The position numbers and the translations under genes were made by a program. Shown in pieces: positions 32,130-46,494 of a DNA stretch of 64,000 nucleotides. The notes beneath the pieces were generated by a model. The model saw nothing but the letters and a program-made list of their open reading frames with translations, ran no database searches and was not told the origin of the DNA. How positions within the stretch are numbered: position 1 is the stretch's first letter; every line of letters starts with the position of its first letter. Location of the stretch: assembly GCF_009914755.1 (NCBI RefSeq), contig NC_060945.1. One strand, given 5' to 3'. The DNA comes from the human T2T-CHM13v2.0 reference genome, Homo sapiens.

Positions 32130-35100
32130 AATGGAATCCACTAGAGTGGAATGGAATGGAATGGAGTGGAGTGCAATGGAGTGTGGTGGAATGCAATGGA
32201 GTGGAGTGGAATAGAATGGAGTAGGGTGGAATTCACTGGAACGGAGTGGAATGTACTGGATTTGACTGGAATGGAGTTGAGTGGAGTGGAATGGAGTTGA
32301 CTGGAGTGGCATGGAATGGAGTGGAGTGGAGTGCAATGGAATACAGTAGACTGGAGTGGAGTGAATTGGTGTTGAATGGAAAGGAATGGAATGAAATGGA
32401 TACTTAGATTGTGCCACTGCACTAAAACCTGTGTGACAGTAGGGGAACCTGTCGAAAGAAAGGAGTGGAATGGGAAGGAGTGTAGTGTAGTGGAGTGGAG
32501 TGGAGTGGAATTGGAGATTAATATAATGGAGTGGAGTGGAATGGAATGGAGTGGAGTGGAATGGATTGCAGGGGAGTGGGGTGGAGAGCAGTGGAATGGA
32601 GTGGAGTGGAATGGAATGGAATGGAATGGAATGGAGTGGTCTGGAATGGAATGGAGTTGCGTGGAGTGGAGTTCAGTGGACTTGAATGGAATGGAATGGA
32701 ACTGAGTGAAATGGAATGGAATGGAATTGGTGCTGAGATTGTGCCACTGCGCTACAACCTGTGTGATAGAGGGAGATCCTGTCAAAAGAAAGAATTCGAA
32801 TGGGAAGAAGTGGAGTGGATTGGAGTTGAGTGGAATGGAATGGAATTGATTGGAGTGAAATGGAATGGAATGAATGGTAAAGGAATGGAATGGAGTGGAG
32901 TATGGTGGAATGGAATGGAGTGGAGCGTAGTGAAGTGCAGTTGAGTGGAATGGATTGGAGTGGAGTGAAATGCAGTGGAAAGGAGTTGAGCGCAATTTAC
33001 CGGAAAGCAGTGGAATGGAATGGGGAGGAATGGAAAGGCATGGAGTAGAATGGAGTGTAGTGGATTGGAGTGGAGTGGAATTGACTGGAGTGGACTGGAG
33101 TGCATTGGAGTTGGGTGGAATGGAATGGAATTCAATGGCCTGCAGTGGAATGGAATGCAGTGGTGTTGAGTGTAGTGGAGTGGAATGGAACAGAATGGAA
33201 TGGAATGGAAAGGAGGAGTGGAGTGGAGTGGAATTCAGTGGAGTGGATTGCAGTGGAATGGAATGGAATGGATTGGAATGGAGATGAGTGGAGTTGAAAG
33301 AAGTGGAGTGGAATGGAGTGCAGAGGAGTGGATAGGAGTGCAATGGATTGCAGTGGAATGGAATGGCATAAAGTGGAGTGGAATTTAGTGGAATGGAGTG
33401 GAATGGACTGGACTGGAATGGAATGGAATGGAGTGGAGTGGAATGGAATGGAGTGGAGTGGAATGGAATAGAGTGGAGTGGAGTGGAATGCAGTGGCGTG
33501 GAGTGGAATAGAGTGAAGAGGAGTGGATGTAGTGAAGTGAAGTGGAATGAAATGGGGTGGAGTGGAGTGGAATTGAATGGATTGGAGTGGAGTGCAAAGG
33601 AGTCGAATGGAAACGGATGCAAAGGAATGTAGTGGAATGGAGTGGATTTGACTGGAATGGAATGGAATGGAATGGAATGGAATGGAATCGCTGTTGAGAT
33701 CGTGTCACTGTGCTACAGACTGTGTGACAGAGGGAGATCCTCTGGAAAGAAAGGAGTGGAATGGGATGGTGTCGAGTGGATTGCAGTGGAGTGGAGTGAA
33801 ATGGAGTGGAATGGATTGGTGTGGAGTGTAATGGAGTGGAGTGGAGTGGACTGGAATGGAGTGGATTGGGTTGGAATGGAGTGCAGTGGAGTGGAATCAA
33901 GTGGAATGGAATGGGGTGGAGTGTGGTGGAATGGAATGGATTGGATTGGAGTGGAGTGGAGTGGAGCTTAATGTTATGGAGTGGAGTGGAATGGATTGGA
34001 ATGGACTGGAATGGAATGGATTGGAGTGGAGTGGAGAGCAGTGGAGTGGAGTGGAGTGGAATGGAATGGAATGGAGTGGCATGCAGTGGAGTGGAAGGGA
34101 GTGGAGTGGACTGGAGTGGAAAGGAGGTGAATGAAATGGAATGGAATGGAATGGAATGGAATGGAATGGAATGGAATGGGTGATGAGATTGTGCCACTGC
34201 ATCAAAACCTGTGTGACAGAGGGAGATCCTGTCAAAAGAAAGAATTGTAATCGGAAGCAGTGGAGTGGATTGGAGTTGAGTGAAACGGAATGGAATGGAG
34301 TGGAGTGGAGTGGAATGGAGTGGAGTGGAGTTGAATGGAATGTGGTGGAGTGGAATGAAGTCGAGTGGAATGGAGTGGAATGGAATGTGATGGAATGGAA
34401 TGGAATGGATTATGGTGGAGTGGAGTGGATTGAAGTGGAGTAGAGTGGATTGTAGTGGAATGAAATGGGATGGAATGGAATGCCATCGAGTGCAGTGGAG
34501 TGGAGTGGACTGGAGTGGAGGAGAGTGGAATGGAGTCGAGTGGAATAGAATGGAGTGGAACAGAATGGAATGGAATGCAATGGAATGGAATGCAAAGGAA
34601 TGGAATGCAATTAAATAGAATGGAATGGAATGGTGAAATGAAATGTGAGCTGAATTGGTGCCACTGCACGCCAGCCTGGGTGACAGAGTGAGATGCTGTC
34701 GAAAGAAAGAAATGGAATGGAATGGAGTGGAGTGGAGTGGTGTGGAGTGGAGTGGTGTGGAGTGGAATGGAATGGGATGGACTATAATGGAATGGATTGC
34801 TGTGGATTGGAGTGGTGGAGAGTGGAATGGAGTCGAGTGGAATGGAATGGAATGGACTGGAGTGGAATGCAGTGGAATGGAATGGAAAGGAGTGGAGTGG
34901 AGTGCAGTGGAGTGGAGTGGAGTGGAATGGAATGGAATGGATTAGCGAAATGAAATGTAAGCTGAGATTATGTCACTGTACTCCAGAATGGGTGACAGAG
35001 TGACATCCTGTGGAATGTAAGGAATGGAATGGATTGGAGTGGAATGGTTTGGAATGTAGTGGAGTGGATAGGAGTGAAGTGGAGTAGAATAGAGTGGAGA

Positions 35101-44100: not shown

Positions 44101-46494
44101 TAAAGGAACATAATGGAATGGAACGCAATGGAATGTAATGCAATGGAATGGAATGTGAAATGAAATGTGAGCTGAGAAAGTGTCACTGAACCCTGGGCTG
44201 GGTGACAGAGTGAGACCTTGTCGAAAGAAAGGAATGGAATTGAAAGGAGTTGAAAGGAATGGAATGGAGTGGAGTGGAGTGGAGCTGAGTGGAATGCACT
44301 GGATTTGACTGGAGTCGAGTGGAATGGAGTGGAATGGAATGCGGTGGAGTGGAATGTAAAGGAGTGGAGAGAGGTGGTGTGGAGAGGAGTGGAGTGGAAT
44401 TGAGTGGAATTCAATGGGATGGAATGGAATGGAGTGGAGTGAAATGGAGTGGAGTGGAGTGGAATAGAGTGCAATGGAATGGAATGGAATTGAGGGTAAT
44501 GGAATTGAGTGCAGAGGAGTGCATTGGAGTGGAGTGGAATGCAGTTGAATGGGAAGGGATGCAATGGAATGGAAGGGAACGGAATGGAACAGAACGGAAC
44601 GGAATGGAATGGAATGGAATGGAATCGTGAAATGAAATGATAGCTGAGATTATGGCACTTCACTCCATCCTGGGTGACGGAGTGAGATCCTGTCGAGAGA
44701 AAAGAATGGAATGAAATGGAGTGGAATGGAATGGAGTAGAATACAGTGGAGTGGAGTGGAGTGGAATGGACTGGAATGGAATGAGATGGGAGGGAGTGGA
44801 ATGGAATGGGATGGAGTGGAGTGGAGTGGAATGGAATGGGATGGAATGGAATGGAGTGGAGTGGAGTGGAGTGGAATGCAATGGAATGGAATGGAATGGA
44901 GTGGAGTGGAGTGGAGAGGGGTGGAGAGGAGTGGACTGGAATGGAATGGAATGGAATGAAATGGAGTGGAATAGAATGGTGAAATGAAATCTGAGCTGAG
45001 ATTGTGCCTCTGCACTCCATCCTGGGTAACAGAGTGAGATCCTGTCGAAAGAAAGCAATGCAATGGATTGGAGTGGAACGCAATGGAATGGAATGGAATG
45101 GAAAGGAATGGAATGGAATAGAATGGAGTGGGTTGGAGTGGAATGGAGTGGAATGGAATGGGATGTAATGAAATTTAGTGTAATGGACCAGACTGGAGTA
45201 GAATGGAGTTGAGTAGAGTGGAAGGGACTGGAATGGAATGGGATGGAATGGAATGGAATAGAGTGGAGTGGAGTGGAGTGGGGTGGAAAGGAATGGGATG
45301 GAGTTGAGTGGAGTGGAGTGGAGTAGAATGGAATGGAATGGAGTGGAATGGAAAGGAATGGAATGAAATTGAATGCAATGGTGAAATGAAATGTGAGGTG
45401 ATATTGTGCCACCGCACTCCAGCCTCAGTGACAGAGTGAGATTCTCTCGAAAAAAAGGAATTGAATGCAATGGAGTGGAATGGAATGGAATGGAAAGCAG
45501 TGGATGGAGTGGAGTGGAATAGAGTGGAACGGTATGTGATGGAGTGGAATGGAATGGAGTGGAGTGGAGTGGAGTGGAGTGGAATTGAGTGGAATGGAAA
45601 GGGATGGAATGGAATGGAATGGGGAGGATTGTAGTGGAGGGGAGTTGAGTGGAGTGGGGAGGAATAGAATGGAATGGAATGGAATGGAATAGAGTGGAGT
45701 TGCGTGTAGTGTAGTGTAGTGTAGTGGAATGGAGTGGAATGGAATGTGTTGGAATGGAATTGAGTGGAGTGGAGTGGAGTGGAGTGGAACGGAATGGAAT
45801 GGAATGGAATGGAATGGAATGGAATGGAAAGGAATGGAAAGGAAAGGCATGCAGTGGAGTGGAGTGGAGTGGAGTTCACATAAGTGGAATGAAATGGGAG
45901 GGAATGGAATTGAATGGAATGCAATGGAATGGAATGCAATGGAATGAAATGGAATAGAATGTAATGGCATACAATGGAATGGAAAGGAATGGAATGGAAA
46001 GGAATGGAAAGGAAAGGCATGTAGTGGAGTGGAGTGGAGTTCACATAAGTGGAATCGAATGGGAGGGAATGGAATTGAATGGGATGCAATGGAATGGAAT
46101 GCAATGCAATGCAAAGGGTTGGAATGCAATGGAATGAAATGGAATAGAATGCAATGGAATACAATGGAATGGAATGCAAAGGAATGCAAAGGAATGGATG
46201 GTGAAATTTAATGTGAGCTGAGACAGTGCCACTGCACTTCTTCCAGGGTGGCACAGTGAGATCCTGTCTAAAGAAAGGAATGGAATGGAATGCAGTGAAA
46301 CGGAATGGAATGGAATCGAATGGAGAGGAGTGAAGTGGAGTGGAATGGAATGGAATTGAATGGGATGGAATGGAGTGGATTGGAGTGGACCGGAGTGGAG
46401 TGGAGAGGAATTGAGTGAAATGAAATGGGTTGGAATGGAAAGGAGTGGAGTGGAGGGGAGAGAAGTGGAGTGGAGTGGACTTGATTGGAGTGGA
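32130..46494 (+). repeat. Composite satellite: (GGAGT/GGAAT)n spacers alternating with Alu-3'-end-derived cassettes
   Basis: Abrupt switch to GGAGT-rich pentamers and loss of CAACCCGAGT. 35 cassettes with consensus (GGTGAAATGAAAT)GTGAGCTGAGATTGTGCCACTGCACTCCAGCCTGGGTGACAGAGTGAGATCCTGTCGAAAGAAA start near 32398, 32729, 33691, 34178, 34632, 34945, 35471, 35838, 36197, 36385, 36592, 36809, 37092, 37834, 38430, 38757, 39196, 39379, 39581, 39818, 40111, 40804, 41377, 41639, 42040, 42357, 42833, 43214, 43366, 43783, 44154, 44626, 44978, 45380 and 46200. Confidence 0.93.
35700..41460 (+). repeat. ~3.0 kb higher-order repeat of 8 Alu cassettes (2 copies)
   Basis: Cassette-specific variants recur in the same order: CCCTGTATTCCAGCC 36197/39196; GGAGAAATTAAATGTGAGCTAAG 36385/39379; GGGATTTTGTAATTGCACTCCATTTTGGG 36592/39581; GACATTGTGGCAC 36809/39818; GTTGACATGTAATGTGAG 38430/41377. 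Offsets are 2.92-3.02 kb. Confidence 0.9.

What the first reader, a model, noticed from the sequence alone, without database searches (positions are those of the whole stretch)
32130..46494. 14 kb composite satellite: 35 co-oriented Alu 3'-end cassettes separated by variable GGAGT/GGAAT spacers
Seen: a ~62-80 bp cassette matching only the last ~55 nt of the Alu right arm (GTGAGCTGAGATTGTGCCACTGCACTCCAGCCTGGGTGACAGAGTGAGATCCTGTC + GAAAGAAA) recurs 35 times on the same strand. Pentamer spacers range from ~75 to ~900 bp. Copies share truncation points and usually the non-Alu leader GGTGAAATGAAAT. Inference: these are not independent insertions. One Alu fragment captured in pentamer satellite was amplified as the monomer of a distinct repeat-spacer satellite. 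Standard masking would probably split it into simple repeats plus scattered Alu fragments and hide the unit. Alu-containing satellites are known (HSat1B/DYZ2 carries Alu fragments). I cannot tell from the window whether this one is already catalogued.
Basis: partly seen in the sequence, partly recalled or inferred. Interest (0 to 1): 0.88.

Follow-up and report, generated by a model that had tools for sequence, protein, structure and literature searches.

The report
Alu-tail fragments inside human satellite 3
This is a real stretch of human satellite 3 DNA on chromosome 21's short arm in which one ancient Alu tail fragment was copied along with the satellite, but the same arrangement occurs thousands of times on many chromosomes and is already noted in print, so it is ordinary.

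Summary
There are exactly 35 co-oriented cassettes at window 32363-46300. Each is a 13-nt pentamer-like leader, 56 nt of Alu 3' end and GAAAGAAAG, set in GGAAT/GGAGT pentamers with 152-961 bp between cassettes.

The single-origin reading is supported. Both junctions are shared genome-wide. The 5' junction 22-mer has 2761 hits at up to 2 mismatches and the 3' junction 26-mer has 1395; reversed-pattern controls gave 0.

The array is not a distinct local satellite. The same cassette-bearing array type lies on at least 13 chromosomes (1, 3, 4, 9, 10, 13, 14, 15, 17, 20, 21, 22, Y), about 4000 copies by extrapolation. A colinear paralog on chr14 is 91-95% identical.

Pentamer content and HSat3A4-specific 24-mers place it in HSat3, A4-like. 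No regular higher-order repeat exists, only old internal duplications of 82-90% identity. Spacer lengths change in steps of five.

The Alu at 46495 is not the source. It marks a locus-specific deletion junction.

Alu fragments in HSat3 on chrY and the acrocentrics, clustering phylogenetically, are reported by Rhie et al. TE fragments within HSat3 units are reported by Altemose et al. Novelty is low.

The parts
32131..46494 (+). Alu-cassette-bearing HSat3 array (A4-like): GGAAT 55 per kb, GGAGT 40 per kb, GC 0.466, 35 cassettes
32363..34266 (+). Cassettes c01-c04 (profile hits 32363-32486, 32692-32816, 33653-33777, 34142-34266). Type B: no leader, start GGGTGCTGAGAT, followed by GGAGT-rich spacer
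34606..35939 (+). Cassettes c05-c08 (34606-34734, 34918-35046, 35446-35573, 35812-35939), type A. Older duplicate of c25-c28
36171..38859 (+). Cassettes c09-c16 (36171-36300, 36359-36488, 36567-36693, 36784-36910, 37051-37179 [B], 37798-37916 [B], 38404-38532, 38731-38859). First copy of a ~3.0 kb duplicated block
39170..41739 (+). Cassettes c17-c24 (39170-39299, 39353-39482, 39556-39680, 39793-39920, 40074-40198 [B], 40768-40892 [B], 41351-41479, 41613-41739). Second copy: 35911-38676 matches 38900-41628 at 86.0% identity, offset 2989
42014..43316 (+). Cassettes c25-c28 (42014-42141, 42331-42458, 42808-42935, 43188-43316). 34317-35359 matches 41735-42776 at 89.6% identity, offset 7418
43340..46300 (+). 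Cassettes c29-c35 (43340-43468, 43758-43885, 44129-44254, 44600-44728, 44952-45079, 45355-45482, 46175-46300), type A
46483..46516 (+). Junction of HSat3 with the interior of an Alu. The 34-mer is unique in the genome (1 hit at up to 3 mismatches). It marks a locus-specific loss of ~25 kb relative to the chr3, chr4 and chrY paralogs
46495..46740 (+). 5'-truncated ordinary Alu with poly(A), full length in the paralogs. Not the source of the cassettes
46498..52732 (+). Segmental-duplication flank, 97% identical to chr3, chr4 and chrY copies. The 2-kb probe (window 46300-48300) has about 30 full-span paralogs at 94-98%. This is context, not part of the satellite
1..32130 (+). Neighbouring, different HSat3 array: GGAAT 100 per kb, GGAGT 4.6 per kb, the 10-mer CAACCCGAGT 96 times exact, no cassettes. 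Near-matches to the HSat3B1 and B2 24-mers. This is context

Best explanation
The region is a block of human satellite 3, most like Altemose's subfamily HSat3A4, whose irregular repeat unit has carried a single ancient Alu fragment since before the array type spread.

Inferred sequence of events:
1. One 5'-truncated Alu, or a fragment of one, came to lie in (GGAAT)n with its sense strand on the GGAAT strand. It comprised a 56-nt 3' end plus a short degenerate A-tail.
2. Unequal exchange and tandem duplication of segments holding the fragment plus adjoining pentamers multiplied it. The copied segment included the variant pentamers GGTGAAATGAAAT.
3. Replication slippage or unequal exchange in pentamer register lengthened and shortened the spacers. 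This gave a quasi-period of about 370-400 bp instead of a fixed monomer.
4. Segmental duplication and exchange among acrocentric short arms and pericentromeres carried the arrays to at least 13 chromosomes.
5. At this chr21 locus a later deletion fused a truncated copy of the array to the inside of an unrelated Alu in a neighbouring segmental duplication.

No function is implied. It behaves as heterochromatic satellite DNA.

Shown here: the shared junctions, the genome-wide spread, the co-orientation, the pentamer-step spacer changes, the old internal duplications and the unique deletion junction. Inferred: the order of events and the mechanisms.
For: Shared junctions: 239, 214 and 237 of 253 cassettes from seven chromosomes keep the 5' end, leader and tail. 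Genome-wide, the 5' junction 22-mer has 2761 hits and the 3' junction 26-mer 1395 hits at up to 2 mismatches. The reversed-pattern controls gave 0.

Co-orientation: all 253 cassettes, plus 46 in the chr14 paralog, lie in the same orientation relative to the GGAAT strand.

Spread: hits fall on chr1, 3, 4, 9, 10, 13, 14, 15, 17, 20, 21, 22 and Y. Two independent extrapolations give about 4000 and 4150 cassettes.

Pentamer slippage: 6 of 10 paralogous inter-cassette intervals differ by an exact multiple of 5. The chance rate is 1 in 5, so binomial P is about 0.006 by my arithmetic. Also, 16 of 34 spacings are congruent to 2 mod 5.

Ancient duplication, not homogenisation: internal repeats are only 82-90% identical and irregular, with offsets of 3.0, 7.4 and 4.5 kb. 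For 33 of the 35 window cassettes the nearest relative lies on another chromosome.

HSat3 identity: pentamer density, TRF period 5, and 9 HSat3A4-specific 24-mers giving 4 exact and 75 one-mismatch hits in 14.4 kb. Four HSat3A1/A2 control 24-mers gave 0.

Paralog: chr14:4683418-4697540 is colinear at 91-95% identity, and the array continues there for at least 5 kb more.

Boundary: the Alu is full length in the chr3, chr4 and chrY paralogs and is preceded there by about 25 kb of non-satellite DNA. The window's junction is unique in the genome.

Print: Rhie et al. and Altemose et al. report the same class of arrangement.
Against: - A tree on the 64 Alu-derived columns did not recover the cassettes as one clean clade. 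Only 13 of 16 real Alus grouped apart (support 0.80), and three did not. The segment is too short and too diverged, so monophyly rests on the junctions.
- Type B cassettes (8 of 35 here) lack the leader and start 2 nt differently. A second capture, or a rearranged derivative, cannot be told apart formally.
- The subfamily call rests on 9 of the 65 HSat3A4-specific 24-mers and few exact hits. The top Table 1 24-mers gave none.
- Cassette junction hits also lie at chr17:27.84 Mb. Altemose et al. report an HSat3B1 array on chr17, but I did not check whether these coordinates fall in it. If they do, the cassette is not confined to A4.
- Rhie et al. call the fragments AluY from PAR1. Mean cassette-cassette identity of 0.796, equal to that among unrelated old Alus in the flanks (0.792), fits an older origin or a faster satellite mutation rate. 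I could not decide between these.
Confidence: 0.85

Rival explanations
1. A distinct composite 'repeat-spacer' satellite not yet catalogued as such. The Alu cassette plus a variable pentamer spacer is a family of its own that deserves a separate entry, and its origin is older than the AluY/PAR1 origin given in print.
For: - The array lacks the classical 10-mer entirely, while the adjoining HSat3 has 96 exact copies.
- No cassette k-mer appears in Altemose 2014's four supplementary data files.
- TRF reports only period 5 and 20.
- No paper found by six searches (plus 51) describes the 56-nt fragment, its leader or its copy number.
- Cassette divergence resembles that of old Alus.
Against: - The spacers are ordinary HSat3A4-like pentamers.
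- There is no fixed unit length or homogenised monomer.
- The association of Alu fragments with HSat3 and their phylogenetic clustering are already published.
- I could not see Dfam, RepeatMasker or CenSat tracks, so 'uncatalogued' is untested.
Confidence: 0.1
2. Independent Alu retrotranspositions into the pentamer satellite, later trimmed to similar lengths.
For: Alus insert everywhere. The cassettes end in an A-rich tail.
Against: - The same 5' truncation, the same non-Alu leader and the same degenerate tail GAAAGAAAG occur in 214-239 of 253 copies.
- All copies have the same orientation.
- At every site where the flanking real Alus vary as CG, TG or CA, the cassette majority shares the TG state.
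Confidence: 0.02
3. The cassettes were seeded from, or spread by gene conversion from, the co-oriented Alu that abuts the array at 46495.
For: That Alu lies in the same orientation directly at the array's end, and its tail carries AAGAAAGAAAG.
Against: - In the chr3, chr4 and chrY paralogs this Alu is full length and separated from HSat3 by about 25 kb of non-satellite DNA.
- The satellite-Alu junction occurs once in the genome, while cassettes occur thousands of times elsewhere.
Confidence: 0.01
4. Assembly artefact: part of the local structure, especially the unique satellite-Alu junction, is a mis-join in the short-arm assembly.
For: The junction is unique. Acrocentric short arms are hard to assemble.
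Against: - The cassette array itself is reproduced colinearly on chr14 at 91-95% identity and in kind on many chromosomes.
- No read-level data were available to test the junction.
Confidence: 0.02

Closest known systems
HSat3, subfamily A4 (Altemose et al. 2014, PMC4022460; Table 1 and supplementary file 2 read)
   Same: - It is a pentamer-derived (CATTC/GGAAT)n satellite rich in ACTCC/GGAGT variants.
- Its listed localisation is 13, 14, 15, 21, 22 and Y.
- It is heterogeneous, with low-frequency specific 24-mers.
- Nine of its 65 specific 24-mers hit the window array and the chr3, chr4, chr14, chrY, chr10 and chr1 cassette arrays.
   Different: - The 2014 paper never mentions Alu (0 occurrences).
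- Its k-mer lists hold no cassette k-mer.
- Cassette arrays also lie on chr1, 3, 4, 9, 10, 17 and 20.
- The official subfamily label for this locus could not be looked up.
HSat3-associated Alu fragments of chrY and the acrocentrics (Rhie et al., 10.1101/2022.12.01.518724, section 10 and methods passages read)
   Same: - Blocks of HSat3 are intermingled with Alu fragments.
- Fragments on chrY cluster with those on the acrocentrics.
- There is no local homogenisation and no clustering by chromosome. This matches.
   Different: - They label the fragments AluY, derived from PAR1.
- The passages I read give no fragment length, shared junctions, leader, spacing or copy number.
- Here the fragments look as diverged as old Alus.
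HSat1B / DYZ2 (Frommer et al. 1984, as cited in Altemose et al. and Rhie et al.)
   Same: It is a satellite whose repeat unit carries an Alu-derived piece amplified with the unit. It lies on chrY and the acrocentrics.
   Different: - HSat1B is a regular ~2.5 kb unit with a segment of over 85% AT and a longer Alu subunit.
- Here the GC fraction is 0.466, the spacers are pentamers, the unit is irregular, and only 56 nt of Alu is present.
WaluSat (Hoyt et al., 10.1101/2021.07.12.451456, passages read)
   Same: It is an acrocentric short-arm satellite with an Alu in its history.
   Different: - WaluSat is a 64-nt monomer transduced beside an AluSx3, and the Alu is not part of the monomer.
- No 64-bp period is seen here.

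Membership tests
HSat3 (k-mer-defined, Altemose 2014/2021) | Derived from diverged (CATTC/GGAAT)n pentamers | tested here: met
   There are 55 GGAAT and 40 GGAGT per kb, all on one strand. TRF gives period 5 (GAATG) over 32000-46198.
HSat3 (k-mer-defined, Altemose 2014/2021) | Pericentromeric or acrocentric short-arm location | tested here: met
   The window is chr21:6448001-6512000 (hub annotation). Sister arrays lie on the acrocentric short arms and near the centromeres of chr1, 3, 4, 9, 10, 17, 20 and Y.
Classical satellite 3 (Prosser et al. 1986; feature recalled, paper not read) | Pentamers interspersed with the 10-mer CAACCCGA(A/G)T | tested here: not met
   There are 0 matches at up to 1 mismatch in 32131-46494, against 96 exact and 229 at up to 1 mismatch in 1-32130. 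None of the HSat3A Table 1 24-mers contains the 10-mer. I therefore file the array under the k-mer-defined HSat3, not the classical definition.
HSat3 subfamily A4 | Subfamily-specific 24-mers (65 listed in supplementary file 2 of PMC4022460) | tested here: met
   Nine of the 65 were tested. They gave 4 exact and 75 hits at up to 1 mismatch in 14.4 kb, against 1 exact and 13 in the 32 kb upstream. Four HSat3A1/A2 control 24-mers gave 0. Caveats: only 9 of 65 were tested, and the top A4 24-mer has a single one-mismatch hit.
HSat3 subfamily A4 | Localisation 13, 14, 15, 21, 22, Y | tested here: met
   Cassette or junction hits fall on all six. They also fall on chr1, 3, 4, 9, 10, 17 and 20.
HSat3 subfamily A4 | Label from the chm13_hsat tool / CenSat track for this interval | not testable with these tools
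   No annotation track was available.
HSat1B / DYZ2 | Regular ~2.5 kb unit with a region of over 85% AT plus an Alu subunit | tested here: not met
   GC is 0.466. There is no regular unit. Only 56 nt of Alu is present.
WaluSat | 64-nt tandem monomer | tested here: not met
   TRF finds periods 5, 20 and two local pairs (152 and 237 bp). It finds no 64-bp array.
Composite satellite (Hoyt/Altemose sense: units made entirely of TE pieces) | Repeat unit composed of combinations of TEs | tested here: not met
   Spacers are pentamer satellite. The Alu piece is about 65 nt of a median unit of about 370 bp.

The most novel reading that the evidence does not exclude
The cassette marks one old lineage of HSat3: a single capture of a 56-nt Alu tail that now stands at about 4000 copies on at least 13 chromosomes. 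Its divergence, about 20% between copies and the same as between unrelated old Alus, would then mean two things. The capture predates AluY, so the published AluY/PAR1 origin would be wrong. The cassette would also be a usable clock and marker for when and in what order HSat3 arrays were seeded across acrocentric and pericentromeric sites in apes.
Probability: 0.25. Interest if true: 0.35.

Novelty: already known. Interest (0 to 1): 0.15.

Why it matters
It matters little for biology at large. It is one more example of a transposon fragment frozen into a satellite unit and carried along by unequal exchange and segmental duplication.

It has practical value. The cassette junctions give specific k-mers inside otherwise featureless pentamer DNA. 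These are useful as markers for mapping, for tracing exchange among acrocentric short arms, and for dating HSat3 spread once ape assemblies are scanned.

The unique satellite-Alu junction at chr21:6494483-6494516 is a candidate structural marker of this haplotype.

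Tried and rejected
- **Fuzzy-regex scan and sensitive self-blastn.** Both timed out. I replaced them with blastn/nhmmer and megablast.
- **Tree of the 64 Alu-derived columns.** It was too weak to test monophyly, so I relied on the junctions instead.
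- **Top subfamily 24-mers of Table 1, PMC4022460.** Six HSat3 subfamilies went through the DNA search and five by script. None assigned the cassette array. They only showed that the upstream array is B-like: 33 near-matches to the B1 24-mer and 94 to the B2 24-mer.
- **Cassette k-mers in the four supplementary data files of PMC4022460.** No occurrence was found.
- **Boundary Alu as the seed of the cassettes.** Rejected.
- **A regular higher-order repeat.** Rejected. There are only 3 internal HSPs of 600 bp or more in the window array, 3 in chr3, 7 in chr4 and 0 in chrY, all at 82-90% identity.
- **Rfam.** No family reached its gathering threshold in 32000-47000.
- **100 kb of the chr14 paralog.** A 20 kb request was answered, so the far end of the chr14 array and its relation to the flank copy at chr14:4636254 were not seen.
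- **Alu subfamily assignment.** Not attempted.

Full report
**1. The observation**

Reading window 32000-35000 shows GGAAT/GGAGT pentamers interrupted by stretches such as GTGAGCTGAATTGGTGCCACTGCACGCCAGCCTGGGTGACAGAGTGAGATGCTGTCGAAAGAAAG. A 21-nt Alu-core pattern with up to 3 mismatches hits 23 times in the window, all on the + strand, against 0 in 100 shuffles.

blastn with one cassette plus flanks (35821-35930) gives 35 hits of 85 nt or more between 32375 and 46292, all on the + strand. The MAFFT alignment of these 35 shows the shared structure. An nhmmer profile built from them scores the same 35 at 89.6-129.1 bits, the three genuine Alus of the window at 28-45 bits, and pentamer background at 28 bits or less.

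Sixteen genuine Alus in the window and the fetched loci align only to profile columns 40-108. These columns hold a 56-nt body from GTGAGC to CCTGTC plus the A-rich tail. Anchor-to-anchor spacing is 152-961 bp.

One refinement: 8 of the 35 by eye in the alignment (c01-c04, c13, c14, c21, c22) are a second type. They lack the leader GGTGAAATGAAAT, start GGGTGCTGAGAT and share the internal differences ACTACAGCCTGTG and AGAGGGAG. A stricter signature script counted 7.

**2. Single origin**

I fetched cassette-bearing stretches from chr3, chr4, chrY, chr10, chr20 and chr1. The profile found 69, 81, 16, 20, 9 and 23 cassettes there. With the window's 35 that makes 253.

- Within each array all cassettes have one orientation, always Alu-sense on the GGAAT strand.
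- Of the 253, 239 keep the 5' end GTGAGCTGAGAT (up to 3 mismatches).
- 214 keep the leader (up to 3 mismatches).
- 237 keep the tail GAAAGAAAG (up to 2 mismatches).

In the whole assembly the 5' junction 22-mer has 2761 matches and the 3' junction 26-mer has 1395 matches, both at up to 2 mismatches. The reversed-pattern controls gave 0. Dividing by the fraction of the 253 that each pattern recovers (175 and 85) gives about 4000 and 4150 cassettes genome-wide. This is an extrapolation from a non-random sample.

The listed hits fall on chr1, 3, 4, 9, 10, 13, 14, 15, 17, 20, 21, 22 and Y. Independent insertions cannot produce this pattern.

A FastTree tree on the 64 Alu-derived columns was inconclusive. 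Thirteen of 16 real Alus formed a clade without cassettes (support 0.80) and three did not.

**3. What kind of array it is**

TRF describes 32000-46499 as a period-5 (GAATG) or period-20 array with 64-66% matches. It sees cassette periodicity only in two local pairs of 152 and 237 bp.

The array has 55 GGAAT and 40 GGAGT per kb and GC 0.466. It has no copy, even at one mismatch, of the 10-mer CAACCCGAGT. I recalled that motif as the classical satellite 3 hallmark. The 32 kb upstream has 100 GGAAT and 4.6 GGAGT per kb and 96 exact copies of the 10-mer. Two different HSat3 types therefore abut near 32.1 kb.

The top subfamily 24-mers from Altemose 2014 Table 1 did not assign the cassette array. 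They did give 33 and 94 near-matches of the B1 and B2 24-mers in the upstream array.

In that paper's supplementary list, (ACTCC)3-containing specific 24-mers belong to subfamily 3A4, which has only 65 specific 24-mers of low frequency. Nine of these gave 4 exact and 75 one-mismatch hits in the 14.4 kb array. They gave similar densities in the chr14, chr3, chr4, chrY, chr10 and chr1 cassette arrays, but only 1 exact and 13 one-mismatch hits in the upstream 32 kb. Four 3A1/3A2 control 24-mers gave 0 in the cassette array.

I therefore call the array HSat3A4-like. The caveats are that only 9 of 65 were tested and that the official track was not available. The 8 exact junction hits at chr17:27.84 Mb suggest the cassette may not be confined to one subfamily. 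Altemose et al. report an HSat3B1 array on chr17, but I did not check whether these coordinates fall within it.

**4. How it grows**

There is no regular higher-order repeat. Within the window array the only internal matches of 600 bp or more are:
- 35911-38676 against 38900-41628 (86.0% identity, offset 2989);
- 34317-35359 against 41735-42776 (89.6% identity, offset 7418);
- one 609-bp match at 83.6% identity.

The chr3 and chr4 arrays show a few matches at 82-90% identity with offsets near 4.5 kb. The chrY array shows none.

Mean identity over the 64 columns is 0.779 within the window and 0.790 between the window and other chromosomes. For 33 of the 35 window cassettes the nearest relative lies on another chromosome. 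The cassette series is therefore older than the dispersal, and there is no local homogenisation.

Between the duplicated blocks, 6 of 10 corresponding inter-cassette intervals differ by an exact multiple of 5, and three more differ by a multiple of 5 plus or minus 1. In addition, 16 of 34 spacings are congruent to 2 mod 5. With a chance rate of 1 in 5, 6 of 10 has a binomial probability of about 0.006 by my arithmetic. Spacer variation is thus explained by gain and loss of pentamers.

**5. Surroundings**

The array ends at 46494, joined to GATCACTTGAGGTCAGGAG, which is the interior of an Alu that runs to a poly(A) near 46740.

The sequence from 46498 onward is a segmental duplication. The 2-kb probe has about 30 full-span paralogs at 94-98% identity, on chr1, 3, 4, 9, 13, 14, 15, 21, 22 and Y. 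It aligns at 97% to the chr3, chr4 and chrY copies. In those three copies the Alu is full length and is preceded by non-satellite DNA. About 25 kb separates it from the cassette array.

The window's 34-nt satellite-Alu junction occurs once in the genome at up to 3 mismatches. This locus therefore carries a private deletion, or less likely a mis-join. The boundary Alu is not the source of the cassettes.

A colinear paralog of window 32090-46198 lies at chr14:4683418-4697540 on the minus strand, at 91-95% identity. There the cassettes continue for at least 5 kb more, with 46 cassettes in 20 kb.

Rfam finds nothing in 32000-47000.

**6. What is in print**

- *Altemose et al.* (10.1101/2021.07.12.452052, passages read). 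[quoted passage not shown] 2001 for acrocentric satellite III. I could not read that 2001 paper.
- *Rhie et al.* (10.1101/2022.12.01.518724, section 10 and a methods passage read). [quoted passage not shown] They report that those on chrY cluster phylogenetically with those on the acrocentrics. They find no local homogenisation and no clustering by chromosome, and they derive the fragments from PAR1 AluY elements.
- *Altemose et al. 2014* (PMC4022460). Alu is not mentioned (0 occurrences).
- *Hoyt et al.* WaluSat is a different thing.
- *Searches.* Those for HSat3 or satellite III with Alu terms found nothing that gives the fragment's length, junctions, spacing or copy number. I could not see Dfam, the T2T tracks or the bioRxiv supplements.

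**7. Verdict**

This is a real feature with a single origin. It is an ordinary member of an already described class: HSat3 with an embedded ancient Alu fragment.

The details added here are:
- the 56-nt body with shared leader and tail;
- about 4000 copies on at least 13 chromosomes;
- pentamer-step spacers;
- A4-like k-mers;
- absence of the classical 10-mer;
- the private deletion junction.

One open point remains. Cassettes are as diverged from one another (0.796) as unrelated old Alus in the flanks are from each other (0.792). This sits uneasily with an AluY origin unless satellite DNA mutates faster, and it needs ape assemblies and Alu consensus sequences to resolve.

Noticed in passing
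window 1-32130: A different HSat3 array sits here. It is almost pure GGAAT and has 96 exact copies of CAACCCGAGT. It gives 33 and 94 near-matches (up to 2 mismatches) to the HSat3B1 and B2 24-mers. It also has internal long-period repeats: matched sites 3885-3890 bp apart at 26376/30261 and 26936/30826.
   Followed up: partly
window 46483-46516 (chr21:6494483-6494516): This is a unique junction between HSat3 and the interior of an Alu. The chr3, chr4 and chrY paralogs carry the full Alu and about 25 kb of extra non-satellite DNA, so this locus has a private deletion or an assembly join.
   Followed up: partly
window 46498-52732 and beyond: This is a segmental duplication. The 2-kb probe has about 30 full-span copies at 94-98% identity on chr1, 3, 4, 9, 13, 14, 15, 21, 22 and Y. 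It carries the predicted lncRNA LOC124908153 (hub annotation).
   Followed up: partly
cassette columns, all 253 copies (window and L009-L028): At every position where the real Alus of the flanks vary between CG, TG and CA, the cassette majority is TG and never CA. This suggests a founder that was already CpG-decayed, with all changes on one strand. The Alu CpG positions themselves are recalled, not taken from a tool.
   Followed up: partly
G000:C17:27837075-27878534: There are eight exact 3' junction 26-mers on chr17. Altemose et al. report an HSat3B1 array on chr17. I did not check whether these coordinates lie in it. If they do, the cassette may cross subfamily boundaries.
   Followed up: no
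L025-L026 (chr10:38972001-38992000): The chr10 cassette array has wider spacing (median 661 bp, against 315-397 elsewhere). It is the only fetched locus with exact hits to the top HSat3A4 24-mer (6 exact), and it also has hits to the 3A1/3A2 24-mers.
   Followed up: no
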